A stretch of DNA of 64,000 nucleotides, taken from NCBI RefSeq assembly GCF_057098645.1, contig NZ_CM169472.1; one strand, 5' to 3'. Position 1 is the first letter of the stretch, and each line of letters opens with the position of its first letter. Below, one piece after another: positions 16,801 to 22,800 of the stretch. The position numbers are program-made.

Positions 16801-19800
16801 CCGGAACGGGCAAAGCATGAATCTCTGCCATTAACTTTTGCCCCTGCCGCGCCAGTGCTTCCGCTTCTTGCGCCGTTTTGCAGTTGCCGATCATGTTGAT
16901 GTCTGCGCCAGCAATGAAGTTGTCCGGTTTAGCGGAGACAAACACCACGCCTCGCAACTCTTTGTTTTCACGGAGTTGCTTAATAATGGCGCGCACCTGC
17001 GAGGCAAACTCCGCCTTCAGGGTATTCATTTTCTCACCCGGTACGTCGATGGTGATAACGGCAATGTTGTCCAGACGAACATTAAGGGTAAACGCTGATG
17101 TCATTTCCATTATTCCGCCTCCAGAACCATTGCCGCGCCAAGCCCACCGGCAGCACAGGCGGTAACTAAACCAAATCCACCGCCGCGACGGCGAAGTTCA
17201 TGCAATGTCTGGGTAATCATCCGCGCGCCGGTCGCCGCGAAGGGATGCCCGTAAGCAATCGAACCGCCAAGCACGTTAAATTTGCTATCGTCCACTTCGC
17301 CAGTGGCATGTGCACGCCCCAGTACTTCACGAGCAAAACGTTCACTACCCAGCAACTGAATATTCGCCAGTGTCTGAGCTGCAAAAGCTTCGTGCATATC
17401 GATCAATGTCAGATCGCTCATCGTCAAACCGGCACGTTCCAGCGCCAGCGGTGTTGACCAGGCCGGACCGAGCAACATGTCCTGCCAGACATCGATAGCG
17501 GTAAATGCGTAGCTGCGCAGATATCCCAGCGGTACCAGCCCTAATTCTTTCGCCCGGGATTCAGTCATCAGGATCACCGCCGCTGCGCCATCGGTCAGCG
17601 GCGTACTGTTCGCCGCCGTTACCGTTCCGTGTTTACGATCAAACGCCGGACGCAGCTTTGCGTAATCAGCAAGCGAGGAATTACCGCGAATATTGTTGTC
17701 TTCCGCGAGCAGTTGTTTATAAGGAGGGATAAAGGCAGTCATCACCTCTTCTTTGAGTTTTCCCTCTGACCATGCCTGAGCGGCACGCTGATGCGAACGG
17801 TGCGCTAATGCATCTTGCTGTTCTCGGGTGATGCCGTAGGTTTTCGCCATTTGCTCTGCGGTGTCGCCCATCCGCAAGCCGGTAGAATATTCTGCTACCG
17901 CAGGTGGTACGGGCATTAAGTCGCGCAAACGCAGGCGAGAGAAGAGTTTCAGTCGCTGGCTCATAGTTCGAGCTTTGTTGACATCAACCAGCACGCGCGC
18001 CAGTTTTTTACTGACGCCAATTGGCAATACGGAAGAGGAATCTGCCCCACCGGCAATCCCCGCTCGAATAGTTCCCGCCATCAGGCTTTCTGCGACGTTT
18101 GCAACCGCCTGGAAACTGGTAGCGCAAGCGCGGCTGACGCTGTAAGCATCGGTATGCACATTCATTCCGGTACCGAGAACAATTTCACGCGCAATGTTGG
18201 GGGCATCAGGCATTTGTACGACCTGACCAAAGACCAGTTGTTCAATCACTTCAGCGGGGATCTCGCTGCGTGCCAGCAGTTCGCCTACCACCATCTTCCC
18301 CAAATCAACAGCAGGAATGCCATGAAAAGCCGTCGCCTGGCGGGCAAAAGGCGTACGTAAACCGCTAACAATGGCGATACGATCGCCCTGGCGGGTAACC
18401 AGCGGTAAAACCTGACCCATAACACTCCCCTGTAAAAAAAATAAATAAAGTGGTCTGACCTGATCATAGTCTTAACCATTTTTTTACATTTAGCCAAGCG
18501 GAGAAAAGGGAAAGTGGGAGCTATGACACAGAGAGAAAAGAAGAAGAGAAAAGAAAACGCCCCTGCCAGCAATTGACAGGGGCGTACGTACCCGAGAGGA
18601 ATTAACGCAGACCCAGCTGGAAGATCAGCATTTCAGCTTCGCAGGCAAAAGTGAAATCGATATCCAGGCGCACACCATCAGACTCTTCAGTGAAAGTCGG
18701 GGAGATTTTGCACGGTTCGGATTCCACGCTACGGGCTTTCTCAGTCAGCGCCGCCAGCGTTTGTTCTGCTTCTGCGCGGTTTGCAAACACGCGGCTGTAA
18801 GACGCGGTGCAGTCGGAGTTGTCCATAATGGTGCCAACATCCATACAGCAGCAAACCGGGGTTTCATCAGCACTACATTTACTCATCGTTGATTTCCTCT
18901 GTATGTGCACCCAAGGTGCCAGATAAACGTTGTGGATATTTTACGCTTCCGGAAAGTGCTGCTCCAGTTGTTAATTCTGCAAAATCGGATAAGTGACCGA
19001 AATCACACTTAAAAATGATCTAAAACAAAATTCACCCGAATCCATGAGTGCGCCACCTCCAAATTTTGCCAGCTGGATCGCGTTTCTTAGATCATATTTG
19101 AAAAAAGATAGAAACATACTTGCAACATTCCAGCTGGTCCGACCTATACTCTCGCCACTGGTCTGATTTCTAAGATGTACCTCAGACCCTACACTTCGCG
19201 CTCCTGTTACAGCACGTAACATAGTTTGTATAAAAATAAATCATTGAGGTTATGGTCATGAGCCAGAAAACCCTGTTTACAAAGTCTGCTCTCGCAGTCG
19301 CAGTGGCACTTATCTCCACCCAGGCCTGGTCGGCAGGCTTTCAGTTAAACGAATTTTCTTCCTCTGGCCTGGGCCGGGCTTATTCAGGGGAAGGCGCAAT
19401 TGCCGATGATGCAGGTAACGTCAGCCGTAACCCCGCATTGATTACCATGTTTGACCGCCCGACATTTTCTGCGGGTGCGGTTTATATTGATCCGGATGTA
19501 GATATTTCTGGGCGTTCCGATTTAACGGGCCAGCGTGCTGATGCAGATAATATTGCACCAACTGCGTGGGTGCCTAACCTACATTTCGTAGCACCTATTA
19601 ACGATCAGTTTGGTTGGGGGGCTTCTATTACCTCGAACTATGGTCTGGCCACGGAATTTAATGATAACTACGCTGCTGGAATCTATGGCGGTAAAACCGA
19701 TCTGCAGACGATCAACCTTAACCTTAGCGGAGCCTACCGCCTTAACAATAGCTGGAGTTTTGGTCTTGGTTTTGATGCTGTATACGCTAAGGCAAAAATT

Positions 19801-22800
19801 GAGCGTACTGCCGGTTCACTCGGTCCATTGCTTTCCCAACAACTGATAGCGCAAGGCGTGCCACAAAGTTGGACAAACGGCATCAATACACCGGATTCGC
19901 AAATTGCTCATCTCAAGGGTGATGAATGGGGATTCGGCTGGAACGCCGGTATTCTTTATGAACTGGATAAAGATAACCGTTGGGGCCTAACCTATCGTTC
20001 AGAAGTGAAAATTGACTTTGAAGGAGATTACAAAAGCTCCATCAACCCAAATCTGAACAACATTTTGGGTAGCATGGGTTTACCATATGGCACAATGGGT
20101 GCAACCCAAAATGGGTCCTTAACGCTGAATTTACCTGAGATGTGGGAAATTTCTGGCTATAACCGTGTCGCACCACAATGGGCTATCCACTATAGTCTGG
20201 CGTATACCAGTTGGAGTCAATTCCAGGAACTGAAAGCGAAAGGAGACTCTGGTCAAACGCTGTTCTATAAAGACGAAGGTTTCCGGGATGCTTACCGTAT
20301 CGCGTTAGGTACAACCTACTACCACGATAAAAACTGGACCTTCCGTACGGGTATTGCATTCGATGACAGCCCGGTTCCGGCAGATAAACGTTCTATCTCT
20401 ATCCCAGATCAGGATCGTCTGTGGTTAAGTGCAGGTGCGACTTATGCATTTAATGAAGATGCATCCATTGACGTTGGTGCATCTTATATGCACGGTCAGA
20501 ATGTGAAGTTTACTGAAGGTGAAGGGCCAGCAGCATATACCTTTAAATCTGAAGGTAAAGCCTGGCTGTTCGGTACTAACTTTAACTACGCGTTCTGATA
20601 ACGCGTTCGCCTGGATAAAGTCACCTGCTATGCAGGTGACTTTAACTCCCCCACTTCACCGAAAGTAGTTTCCTCATTGCTTGCCTCCTGAGTTTTGCAA
20701 ACAGCCTGATGGCAGCTTGCCCTTTCAAATCAGTAAGTGGTATCCACAGACAAACCTGAAGGGAAACGCATATTTTCAGGCGTTCTGCTCGTCCTCCTCA
20801 AAGAGTTTACTTTTCTGCATTTCCAGGATACTCAACCTCCCTGGCTATTGTGCGCTCATTCACTCAAATTAAAGATAGGTTCTAAATAAATGAGCGTTTT
20901 TTGATAGTCTATTTCATTAGGTAATATATATTTGTAACAAATCAATCAACATGGAATAAAATCATGCTACCATCTATTTCAATCAACAATACCAGCGCTG
21001 CTTACATAGAATCCATCAATGAAAATAACAATGATGAAGTTAATGGATTAGTACAAGAGTTCAAAAACCTTTTTAATGGTAAGGAAGGAATAAGCACCTG
21101 TATTAAACATCTACTTGAGCTTATAAAAAACGCCATACGAGGAAACGACGATCCTGATAGAATAAATATCAATAATTCTTCAGTTACTTATATTAATATT
21201 GGTTCCAATGATACAGACCATATTACTATTGGTATCGACAACCAAGAACCAATAAAATTACCTGCGAGTTATAAAGACAAAGAACTCGTCCGTACTATCA
21301 TTAATGACAACATAGTTGAGAAGACTCATGATGATATAAATAATGCTGAATTTACTGATGGTATTATTGTTAGTGGTATTGATGATCGTAGTGATATTGG
21401 CATTGACTCCAATGATACAGACGATATTACTTTTGATATTGATATTGATATTGATATTGAAAATCAAGAACCAATAAAATCACCTACGAACGATGAAAAC
21501 AAAAAACTCGGCCAAACCCTCATCAATGAAAATGTAGTAGAGAATATTCATGATATCAATAACAAGAAAATGATCTTCTGCGCAATAAAAGAAATATATA
21601 ATGGAGATCCTGATTTCATTTTCGATAAAATATCACGTAACCTCATACATACGGTAACGGAATTCGATGAGAGCGGGAAAAGCGAACCAACGGACTTATT
21701 TACTTGGTACGGTAAAGATAAAAAAGGCGACTCTCTCGCTATTGTAATTAAAAATATAAACGGAAACGATTATTTATCTCTCGGTTACTACGATCAGGAC
21801 AACTACCACATTAAAAGAGGAATTCGTATTAATAGTGATAGTCTCACACAATATTGTAGTGAAAACGCCAGGAATGCTTCAGTGTCGTTTGAAAGCAATA
21901 AAGCTATCATGGCAGAATTATTTGCAACAGGTATAAATCATCAATTTGTAAATGAACTCAACGGGGAAAGACTGAGAGAACCAAACGAAGTTTTTAAACG
22001 TTATGGTCAAGCAATAAGATATGATTTTCAAGTGGACGATGCAAAATATAAATGCGACCATCTAAAAGAAATAGTTTCTACTTTAGTCGGTAACAAAGTT
22101 AACGTTGGCCATTCTCAAAAAATATATAAGCATTTTAAGGATCTCGAAGGTAAAATTGAAGAAAGGCTTCAAAATCGCCAGGCTGAATATCAAAATGAAA
22201 TTAATCAACTATATGCGCTAGGTGTTAATTTTGATGATATTTAAAATTATCTTTCCAGTTTTTTGATTTTTCAACAGCTGAATATCGGAAATAGTCAGTG
22301 ACGAACATCAGTATTTTTACATAATTACGTCCGGGTCATTGTCGGTTTATCTCCTTTTACTTGTGGTAATTGAGGGATAACGACAAAAAAGGTGAGTTTT
22401 GCGACTCACCTTTTTTATTTGTTTCTTATTCAGAATCGATATCTTTTAAATCATCCTGAATCGCTTGCGCGTTCGGATTTTCCTGCGGTTTGAGTTCGCC
22501 GCCATTAGCGATGAAATCATGACGCTGGAAGTACGCTTCGCGCACCATAATATAAGGATCGGACGACTGACGCAGCAGACCGTCGGAATCCAACAACTGC
22601 GCACGAGTTTCTATCCCTTCAAGCGTCCATTTACCCACAGACATCGGCCAGGTCAGCCAGGAAAGAACCGGGTAAAGACCATCCGCCATATCACCACCGT
22701 CATCACGCAGCGTGAAGCTACCGTAGAATGGTAACTGAACGTACGGCCCATAACCCACGCCATAATGACCAAGCGTACTACCGAAGCGGTGAGGTTCAGT

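What the first reader, a model, noticed from the sequence alone, without database searches (positions are those of the whole stretch)
19258..20598. fadL allele appears divergent in predicted surface loops
The barrel core matches the FadL I remember from K-12, but several segments differ (for example [25 protein letters not shown] and the 200-260 aa region). FadL is a phage and colicin receptor, so loop variation may reflect diversifying selection or recombination.
Basis: partly seen in the sequence, partly recalled or inferred. Interest (0 to 1): 0.3.

Follow-up and report, generated by a model that had tools for sequence, protein, structure and literature searches.

The report
Divergent fadL allele from recombination
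This E. coli carries a rare, intact version of the fatty-acid channel and phage T2 receptor FadL in which about 1.06 kb of the gene was replaced by recombination with deeply foreign sequence, changing mainly the surface loops; this fadL polymorphism was published in 2025.

Summary
The fadL gene at 19258-20598 is intact (446 aa) and only 76.9% nt / 79.9% aa identical to K-12 fadL. Amino-acid changes cluster in the extracellular parts (72/194 residues against 16/175 in membrane and periplasmic parts, 0/43 in the plug). All indels lie in loops L1, L3, L4 and L7.

The cause is not loop-by-loop diversification. One sharply bounded block, 19491-20547, is 70.7% identical to K-12 (K-12 vs Salmonella is 82.8% there). 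Synonymous sites are saturated even in membrane strands, and dN/dS is about 0.09. The 715 nt upstream of the block carry a single difference.

The K-12 type groups with E. albertii, Salmonella and Citrobacter amalonaticus, as vertical descent predicts. The window type groups with Leclercia, Lelliottia and Enterobacter soli FadL (99% bootstrap, about 85% aa). No close donor was found.

Among 5,425 complete E. coli genomes, about 78% carry the K-12 type, 17% a second foreign-type lineage, 4% mosaics and 1.4% this allele. This allele is 100% identical in O145:H28 and ATCC 8739.

Residues whose mutants were crystallised are conserved. FadL is a T2 receptor; I found no support for a colicin role. 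The polymorphism, including this exact L3 sequence, is published (PMC12175518). Low interest.

The parts
18911..19257 (+). yfcZ-fadL intergenic region holding the fadL promoter and 5' UTR; native E. coli sequence
   Evidence: No mismatches to K-12 from 18776 to 19445. The upstream sequence is therefore identical to K-12; regulatory sites were not mapped here.
19258..20598 (+). fadL coding sequence, 446 aa plus stop, single copy at the usual yfcZ / yfdF-mlaA locus
   Evidence: ORF. RefSeq annotates the identical allele as fadL, WP_001307921.1. E = 1e-211 to PDB 1T16. The model superposes on FadL crystal structures at TM 0.85-0.92. There is one place per genome in 5425 of 5426 genomes.
19258..19490 (+). 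Native 5' part of fadL: signal peptide (codons 1-25), hatch/plug domain (codons 26-68) and the start of strand S1
   Evidence: One nucleotide difference from K-12 (at 19446), 0/43 amino-acid changes in the hatch, pS 0.03. The Lelliottia and Enterobacter soli genes differ here at 25-28 of 158 nt, so this part is E. coli-like.
19491..20547 (+). Replaced (xenologous) block covering loop L1 through most of strand S14. The 5' junction lies between 19447 and 19490, the 3' junction between 20548 and 20628
   Evidence: 302 mismatches in 1030 aligned nt to K-12 (70.7% identity), against 82.8% for K-12 vs Salmonella over the same block. dS is about 1.9, dN 0.18, dN/dS 0.09. GC3 is 0.42 against 0.51 in K-12. 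Difference positions are listed.
19495..19563 (+).
   Evidence: 8 of 22 residues differ from K-12 plus a 1-residue indel. Topology comes from the DSSP strands of the model.
19642..19707 (+). Extracellular loop L2 region (codons 129-150)
   Evidence: 6 of 22 residues differ.
19786..19935 (+). Extracellular loop L3 region (codons 177-226), the most divergent part, shorter than in K-12
   Evidence: 24 of 48 aligned residues differ, plus indels. The sequence [41 protein letters not shown] is listed as type HVR1_2_0 in the supplement of PMC12175518.
20008..20139 (+). Extracellular loop L4 region (codons 251-294)
   Evidence: 18 of 42 residues differ plus a 2-residue indel.
20212..20289 (+). Extracellular loop L5 region (codons 319-344)
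   Evidence: 8 of 26 residues differ.
20494..20559 (+). Extracellular loop L7 region (codons 413-434), with a 4-residue insertion (EGPA) relative to K-12
   Evidence: 6 of 18 aligned residues differ plus a 4-residue indel.
20548..20598 (+). Conserved 3' end of fadL (end of strand S14, C-terminal ...FNYAF, stop), at or just before the 3' recombination junction
   Evidence: 0 of 48 nt differ from K-12. Downstream differences are sparse from 20629 onward.

Best explanation
The window carries a functional fadL in which about 1.06 kb (19491-20547, from loop L1 to strand S14) was replaced by homologous recombination with a deeply diverged 'type B' fadL lineage. The promoter, signal peptide, plug domain and the last 50 nt remain native E. 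coli sequence.

Type B is a xenologue. It is more distant from K-12 fadL than Salmonella fadL is. Its nearest relatives are FadL of some Leclercia, Lelliottia and Enterobacter (E. soli, E. wuhouensis) species, but no close donor is known.

The result is a channel with the residues targeted in published FadL mutant structures conserved and with re-surfaced extracellular loops. E. coli holds at least three such deep lineages: K-12-like type A, PBP5/Nissle-like type B and this rarer window-like type B. Mosaics between them also occur, and the alleles move between phylogroups by recombination.

Inferred, not shown: the polymorphism is kept by selection from agents that bind the loops, such as gp38 adhesins of FadL-dependent T2-like phages or antibodies. 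Under that reading this allele would change susceptibility to those phages.
For: **Shown**
- Boundaries are sharp: 1 difference in 715 nt upstream against 302 in 1030 nt inside the block (Fisher p = 7e-77), and 0 of 48 nt at the 3' end.
- Synonymous divergence is saturated even in membrane strands (pS 0.54). Overall dS is about 1.9, against 1.1 for K-12 vs Salmonella, and dN/dS is 0.09.
- In a neighbour-joining tree of the variable part, type A groups with E. albertii, E. whittamii, C. amalonaticus and Salmonella (100% bootstrap). Type B groups with Leclercia sp. 29361, Lelliottia sp. V86_10, E. soli and E. wuhouensis (99%).
- The window subtype and the PBP5 subtype of type B differ at dS of about 1.0 and dN 0.035, as far apart as E. 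coli and Salmonella orthologues.
- Mosaic alleles exist: EP91B, and P0002, which combines A and B segments.
- Frequencies in complete E. coli genomes: 4213 of 5425 are at least 95% identical to K-12, 919 at least 95% to PBP5, 217 are mosaics at 90-95%, and 74 are window-like.
- The exact allele is 100% identical in O145:H28, ATCC 8739, O78, O157:H16 and others, while O157:H7 has type A. The window and ATCC 8739 differ at no more than 2 positions per 200 nt from about 18451 to 20850 (none within fadL), with more divergent flanks on both sides.
- F3, N33-P34-A35, A77, S100, G103, G212 and D348 (residues mutated or deleted in PDB entries listed), plus R157 and K317 (recalled from the literature as lining the binding pocket), are all conserved. 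The model superposes on FadL structures at TM 0.85-0.92.
- Amino-acid change runs 37% in extracellular parts against 9% in membrane parts, and all indels lie in loops.

**From the literature**
- The fadL gene tree is incongruent with E. coli lineages, and five hypervariable regions lie in extracellular loops (PMC12175518).
- FadL is the T2 receptor, recognised through gp38 (PMC8594841, PMC12529663).
Against: - No donor was found. The type B cluster at 90% or more identity carries only Escherichia names among the members read, apart from one partial fragment labelled Klebsiella pneumoniae. The next proteins are at 86-88%.
- GC3 of the block (0.42-0.45) is far below that of its nearest relatives (0.63-0.69), so they are not the direct source. 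An old resident polymorphism remains possible.
- The tree is neighbour-joining on proteins, not maximum likelihood.
- Loop enrichment of substitutions (about 4x) equals that of ordinary orthologue divergence (3.7x for K-12 vs Salmonella), so it is not itself evidence for selection.
- No experiment shows that type B loops change phage binding.
- Extracellular and membrane assignments rest on a model of moderate confidence (pLDDT 73.8) and a 10-11-residue rule, not on crystal coordinates.
Confidence: 0.8

Rival explanations
1. In-place diversifying (positive) selection: phage or immune pressure drove rapid amino-acid change in the loops of an otherwise K-12-like gene.
For: Amino-acid changes and indels concentrate in extracellular loops. 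PMC12175518 reports a few positively selected codons within hypervariable-region types.
Against: Synonymous sites are saturated across the whole block, including membrane strands (pS 0.54-0.80). dN/dS is 0.09 overall and 0.06 in the membrane part. The boundaries are knife-sharp at 19491 and 20547. The block is more distant from K-12 than Salmonella is. The loop-to-core ratio equals that of ordinary orthologues.
Confidence: 0.03
2. Ancient balanced polymorphism: types A and B have both been kept within the Escherichia lineage since before its split from Salmonella, with no import from another genus. Recombination only shuffles them among strains.
For: - Type B at 90% or more identity carries only Escherichia names, including two non-coli Escherichia species representatives.
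- No donor is known.
- GC3 of type B (0.42-0.45) is unlike that of its nearest relatives.
- Two type B sublineages differ at dS of about 1.
- Congeners in Lelliottia, Leclercia, Enterobacter and Citrobacter also carry very different fadL barrels.
Against: Type B groups with Leclercia, Lelliottia and E. soli at 99% bootstrap, not with the Escherichia/Salmonella type A clade. E. albertii, E. whittamii, Salmonella and C. amalonaticus representatives all carry type A. Keeping two alleles through many speciation events is less parsimonious than transfer.
Confidence: 0.15
3. Neutral import: the foreign block arrived by chance recombination and persists without any selective advantage. The loops differ only because they are weakly constrained.
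For: dN/dS is low, and the loop-to-core ratio is the same as for ordinary orthologues. No phenotype has been tested.
Against: At least three lineages with dS of 1 or more, plus mosaics, coexist in one species at 1-78% frequency. An identical allele is spread across phylogroups. The same pattern recurs in other phage-receptor outer membrane proteins (PMC12175518). This level of divergence is unusual for a core gene whose flanks differ by 0-3%.
Confidence: 0.1
4. Artefact: a paralogue, a misassembly, or a window that comes from another species.
For: None beyond the high divergence itself.
Against: The gene is single-copy and syntenic between yfcZ and yfdF-mlaA. The flanks are 97-100% identical to K-12. 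Forty-five of the listed complete genomes carry an allele shown as 100.0% identical.
Confidence: 0.01

Closest known systems
E. coli FadL 'mosaic evolution' alleles (Appl Environ Microbiol 2025, PMC12175518)
   Same: Same gene and same phenomenon. The fadL tree is incongruent with E. coli lineages (MG1655 vs ATCC 8739 in lineage A). Five hypervariable regions lie in extracellular loops, with a limited number of discrete types. The window's L3 sequence is their type HVR1_2_0, and ATCC 8739 carries the window's exact allele.
   Different: The paper treats the variation as local hypervariable-region exchange and states that the sources are unknown. This analysis adds four points:
- The whole 1.06-kb block between S1 and S14 is replaced, with saturated synonymous divergence.
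- Type A is the vertically inherited form.
- Type B groups with Leclercia, Lelliottia and E. soli FadL.
- There are three deep lineages, and the block has a low GC3.
K-12 FadL (PDB 1T16), long-chain fatty acid channel and phage T2 receptor
   Same: Same fold (TM 0.86-0.89 to 1T16), same length (446 aa) and same locus. The hatch domain is identical. The NPA motif, S3-kink glycine, lateral-opening residues and D348 are conserved.
   Different: 79.9% amino-acid identity. Loops L1-L5 and L7 are re-surfaced, with indels in L1, L3, L4 and L7. T2 receptor activity of this allele is untested.
Allelic replacement in other E. coli phage-receptor outer membrane proteins (OmpC, OmpF, OmpA, LamB, FhuA)
   Same: Intragenic recombination exchanges loop-encoding segments among a limited set of types, with hypervariable regions at phage-binding loops (as summarised in PMC12175518).
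   Different: Here nearly the whole barrel is exchanged as one block, and the divergence exceeds the E. coli-Salmonella distance.
FadL of Lelliottia sp. V86_10, Enterobacter soli, E. wuhouensis and Leclercia sp. 29361
   Same: These are the nearest relatives of the replaced block: 84-86% amino-acid identity and 99% bootstrap support.
   Different: Only about 76% nucleotide identity, GC3 of 0.63-0.69 against 0.42, and a 5' part that differs (25-28 of 158 nt). They are not the direct donors.

Membership tests
FadL / OMPP1 / TodX outer membrane transport family (Pfam PF03349) | Sequence membership in the family | tested here: met
   E = 1e-211 to E. coli FadL PDB chains. The representative of the 90% cluster holding this protein, and all listed homologues, carry PF03349.
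FadL / OMPP1 / TodX outer membrane transport family (Pfam PF03349) | 14-stranded beta-barrel plugged by an N-terminal hatch domain | tested here: met
   The AlphaFold model (pLDDT 73.8) shows strand segments consistent with 14 barrel strands after an N-terminal helical segment. It superposes on FadL crystal structures at TM 0.85-0.92 and rmsd 2.7-2.9 Å.
FadL / OMPP1 / TodX outer membrane transport family (Pfam PF03349) | Transport determinants: N-terminal F3, NPA motif (33-35), S3-kink G103, lateral-opening residues A77/S100, G212 and D348 | tested here: met
   All are conserved in the window allele. The residue list is taken from the mutant structures named.
FadL / OMPP1 / TodX outer membrane transport family (Pfam PF03349) | Long-chain fatty acid uptake activity | not testable with these tools
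   Requires a growth or uptake assay on oleate or palmitate.
E. coli outer membrane proteins under 'mosaic evolution' (PMC12175518) | Gene tree incongruent with the strain or lineage tree | tested here: met
   The identical allele occurs in O145:H28, ATCC 8739, O78 and O157:H16, while O157:H7 and K-12 carry type A.
E. coli outer membrane proteins under 'mosaic evolution' (PMC12175518) | Variation concentrated in extracellular hypervariable regions with few discrete types | tested here: met
   37% against 9% amino-acid change, with indels only in loops. Discrete identity classes appear across 5,425 genomes. The L3 sequence equals the catalogued type HVR1_2_0.
E. coli outer membrane proteins under 'mosaic evolution' (PMC12175518) | Intragenic recombination breakpoints | tested here: met
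   Junctions lie at 19447-19490 and 20548-20628. Mosaic alleles EP91B and P0002 exist.
Phage T2 / gp38 receptor | Binding of the T2-type gp38 adhesin to FadL surface loops | not testable with these tools
   Shown only for K-12 FadL in the literature (PMC8594841, PMC12529663). The window allele's loops differ at 27-50% of residues in L1-L5 and L7 (12.5% in L6), so receptor activity cannot be assumed.
Colicin or bacteriocin receptor | A colicin documented to use FadL as receptor or translocator | tested here: not met
   A full-text search for FadL with colicin, bacteriocin and receptor returned no paper on such a role; the listed papers with all four terms mention FadL 1-18 times, none in title or abstract as a colicin receptor. 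I recall none either.

The most novel reading that the evidence does not exclude
The fadL barrel segment (L1 to S14) behaves as a cassette exchanged across genera of Enterobacteriaceae. On this reading, E. coli's two type B lineages are separate imports from unsampled, lower-GC relatives of the Leclercia/Lelliottia/E. soli FadL clade. They would be kept alongside the native type A by frequency-dependent selection from FadL-binding phages. The same deep dimorphism seen between congeners in Lelliottia, Leclercia, Enterobacter and Citrobacter would have the same cause.
Probability: 0.4. Interest if true: 0.4.

Novelty: already known. Interest (0 to 1): 0.2.

Why it matters
FadL is the primary receptor of T2 and other Straboviridae. 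An allele with re-surfaced loops could change which phages can adsorb to O145:H28 and other strains, which matters for phage biocontrol of Shiga-toxin-producing E. coli and for receptor-based host-range prediction. It also matters for vaccine or antibody ideas aimed at outer-membrane loops.

The existence and loop location of these fadL types is already published. The modest addition here is threefold. The exchange unit is almost the whole barrel. The K-12 type is the vertical form. The other types are xenologues of unknown source, which bears on the 'sources unknown' question left open in PMC12175518.

Tried and rejected
- **In-situ loop diversification.** Rejected because of saturated dS in membrane strands and the sharp boundaries.
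- **Window is RM9872.** Rejected. fadL and most flanks are identical, but downstream of tRNA-Arg the window has an integrase and an effector island where RM9872 has dsdC.
- **First frequency estimate.** About 32% type B, taken from the identity bands, was wrong. Partial megablast alignments of type A fall in the 80-90% band. Searches with K-12 and PBP5 as queries give 77.7% A and 22.3% non-A.
- **Donor search.**
  - The species-representative genome scan gave 85.8% amino-acid identity at best outside Escherichia.
  - The 5.8-billion-protein search showed a gap from 98% to 88% (a mosaic) and 86%.
  - The cluster members read carry Escherichia names, apart from one partial fragment labelled Klebsiella pneumoniae.
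  - No donor was identified.
- **Bootstrap.** The Biopython bootstrap timed out and was replaced by a numpy and neighbour-joining bootstrap.
- **Colicin literature search.** Nothing relevant was found.
- **gp38 loop-recognition paper (PMC12032242).** It used fadL only as a deletion control, so it gives no allele-specific data.
- **Metagenome scan.** Not run, because the protein database already covers metagenomes and showed no intermediate sequences.

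
Full report
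**1. What is at the coordinates**

The ORF at 19258..20598 (+) encodes an intact 446-aa protein; an in-frame start also exists at 19252. It matches E. coli FadL crystal-structure chains at E = 1e-211. It sits in the normal locus: fadJ-fadI-yfcZ upstream, then a yfdF-like ORF, mlaA, yfdC and tRNA-Arg downstream. RefSeq annotates the identical sequence as fadL, WP_001307921.1.

**2. Checking the observation**

The quoted peptide and the divergence in the 200-260 aa region are real. Against K-12 fadL the gene is 76.9% nt and 79.9% aa identical, and both genes are exactly 1341 nt long.

An AlphaFold model built from 38 homologues has pLDDT 73.8. It superposes on FadL crystal structures at TM 0.85-0.92. 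I used its strands to split the protein three ways:
- the hatch, codons 26-68
- the membrane and periplasmic part, about 10-11 residues of each strand next to each periplasmic turn
- the extracellular part

| Part | Amino-acid differences from K-12 |
|---|---|
| Hatch | 0/43 |
| Membrane and periplasmic | 16/175 (9%) |
| Extracellular | 72/194 (37%) |

The membrane against extracellular contrast gives Fisher p = 1.6e-10. All indels lie in L1, L3, L4 and L7.

**3. What it really is**

A window-against-K-12 DNA alignment shows background divergence of 0-3 mismatches per 100 nt in most flanking bins. There are 0-1 mismatches per 100 nt from 18776 to 19475. Divergence then jumps abruptly to 19-39 mismatches per 100 nt from about 19476 to about 20541.

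Exact difference positions place the junctions as follows:
- The 5' junction lies between 19447 and 19490, in the sequence encoding strand S1.
- The 3' junction lies between 20548 and 20628, at the end of S14 or just past the stop codon.

Inside 19491-20547 there are 302 mismatches in 1030 aligned nt, or 70.7% identity. K-12 vs Salmonella arizonae is 82.8% over the same block. Synonymous sites are saturated even in the membrane strands (pS 0.54; extracellular pS 0.80). Overall dS is about 1.9, dN 0.18 and dN/dS 0.09. K-12 vs Salmonella gives dS 1.1.

This is a whole-block allelic replacement, not loop-by-loop diversification. The loop-to-core ratio of amino-acid change (about 4x) equals that between ordinary K-12 and Salmonella orthologues (10.6% against 2.9%). 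Loop enrichment alone is therefore not evidence for positive selection.

**4. Where the block comes from**

A scan of one genome per species returned 80 loci encoding FadL relatives. For the variable part:

| Comparison | Amino-acid identity |
|---|---|
| K-12 vs E. albertii, E. whittamii, C. amalonaticus and Salmonella | 92-95% |
| K-12 vs window allele | 75% |
| Window allele vs Lelliottia sp. V86_10, E. soli, E. wuhouensis and Leclercia sp. 29361 | 84-86% |

A bootstrapped neighbour-joining tree gives two clades. Type A groups with E. albertii, E. whittamii, C. amalonaticus and Salmonella at 100%. Type B groups with those Leclercia, Lelliottia and Enterobacter species at 99%, and Kluyvera joins at 96%. 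Type A is therefore the vertically inherited form and type B a xenologue.

No direct donor was found:
- In a 5.8-billion-protein database, one 90% cluster of 1574 members holds the E. coli type B proteins.
- The next hits are an 88% A/B mosaic and proteins at 86% from Lelliottia, Leclercia and E. soli.
- The named cluster members read are Escherichia, apart from one partial fragment labelled Klebsiella pneumoniae.
- GC3 of the block is 0.42-0.45, against 0.51-0.53 in type A and 0.63-0.69 in the nearest relatives.
- Nucleotide identity to those relatives is only about 76%.

The source is either an unsampled lineage or an old resident polymorphism.

**5. Population picture**

All counts are from 5,425 complete E. 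coli genomes that hold fadL.

| Class | Genomes | Share | Source |
|---|---|---|---|
| At least 95% identical to K-12 (type A) | 4213 | 77.7% | |
| At least 95% identical to the PBP5/Nissle 1917/E2348-69-like type B | 919 | 16.9% | |
| 90-95% mosaics such as EP91B | 217 | 4.0% | |
| Window allele (72 at 99% or more, plus 2) | 74 | 1.4% | |

The window and PBP5 subtypes of type B are 95.7% identical in protein but only 84.3% in DNA within the block. Their dS is about 1.0 and dN 0.035, which is as far apart as E. coli and Salmonella orthologues. E. coli therefore holds at least three deep fadL lineages.

EP91B is window-like in its 5' portion and PBP5-like in its 3' portion. P0002 carries type A L3 and L4 in a type B background.

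The window allele is 100% identical in O145:H28 strains, ATCC 8739, O78, O157:H16 and others. O157:H7 carries type A. The window and ATCC 8739 differ at no more than 2 positions per 200 nt from about 18451 to 20850 (none within fadL), with more divergent patches on both sides. This fits recent transfer within the species.

Congeners in Lelliottia, Leclercia, Enterobacter and Citrobacter also differ by 20-50% nt across the fadL barrel. Deep fadL types therefore look like a family-wide feature.

**6. Function and mechanism**

The upstream region is identical to K-12. The hatch is identical as well. F3, N33-P34-A35, A77, S100, G103, G212 and D348 are conserved; these residues are mutated or deleted in the crystallised FadL variants listed. 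R157 and K317, which I recall from the literature as lining the binding pocket, are also conserved.

The protein most likely still transports long-chain fatty acids. That is inferred, not tested.

What changes is the outer surface. K-12 FadL is the primary receptor of T2 through its gp38 adhesin, and FadL is one of the porins used by Straboviridae (PMC8594841, PMC12529663, bioRxiv 10.64898/2026.04.02.716166). FadL was also suggested as an alternative receptor for an Stx2 phage (Watarai 1998, as cited in PMC6020778). Altered phage recognition is therefore the most likely consequence, but no allele-specific data were found. I found no support for FadL as a colicin receptor.

**7. Comparison with what is known**

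PMC12175518 (Appl Environ Microbiol 2025) uses FadL as its showcase for 'mosaic evolution' of E. coli outer membrane proteins. It reports:
- tree incongruence, including MG1655 against ATCC 8739
- five hypervariable regions in extracellular loops, with 2-4 types each
- conserved overall structure
- a few positively selected codons

Its supplement lists the window's exact L3 sequence as HVR1_2_0. The paper says the sources of the hypervariable regions are unknown, and its text contains no mention of synonymous sites, of Enterobacter, or of Salmonella beyond a reference to the authors' earlier fhuA study.

The finding is therefore already known in substance. The present analysis adds detail only: the block boundaries, the saturated dS, the vertical against xenologous assignment, the three deep lineages and the GC3 values.

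**8. Verdict**

Novelty: already known. Interest is low (0.2).

Noticed in passing
window 20964-22244 (+): A yfdF-like ORF of 426 aa with low GC (about 31-34%) and no Pfam hit. It contains a diverged internal duplication (21220-21332 vs 21442-21554, 77% identity) that K-12 yfdF lacks (gap at 21342-21541). Some strains (PBP5, GN02050) lack yfdF altogether.
   Followed up: partly
window 24483-30652: tRNA-Arg(CCT) at 24483-24557 is followed by a phage-type integrase (24683-25885, K-12 intS-like). Four minus-strand type III effector-like genes come next: Peptidase_M91 (NleD-like, 25982-26680), OspG-type kinase (NleH-like, 26911-27801), Peptidase_M85 (NleC-like, 28619-29638) and SseK/NleB (29672-30652). 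Strain RM9872, which has the same fadL allele, has dsdC at this site, so the window is from a different attaching-effacing-type strain.
   Followed up: partly
window 13252-14275: The end of the yfcV fimbrial gene and the adjacent intergenic region differ from K-12 by 11-44 mismatches per 100 nt, yet are nearly identical to O157:H7 TR01 and ATCC 8739. This looks like another surface-structure gene with a deeply divergent allele class.
   Followed up: no
window 15649-16449 and 17249-17449 (fadJ / fadI): Short patches with 8-25 mismatches per 200 nt relative to O157:H7 or ATCC 8739 interrupt near-identical sequence. This is ordinary recombination patchwork around the fadL locus.
   Followed up: no
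loci L011, L013, L015, L017 vs L027, L029, L040, L077; L053 vs L066: Congeneric species in Enterobacter, Leclercia, Lelliottia and Citrobacter carry fadL barrel segments differing by 20-50% nt while the 5' end differs by 7-12%. Deep fadL types, and probably cassette exchange, are therefore not specific to E. coli.
   Followed up: partly
window 19491-20547: GC3 of the replaced block is 0.42 (0.44-0.45 in other type B alleles). That is lower than type A (0.51-0.53) and much lower than the nearest protein relatives (0.63-0.69). The cause is unexplained: an unsampled low-GC donor or long residence.
   Followed up: partly
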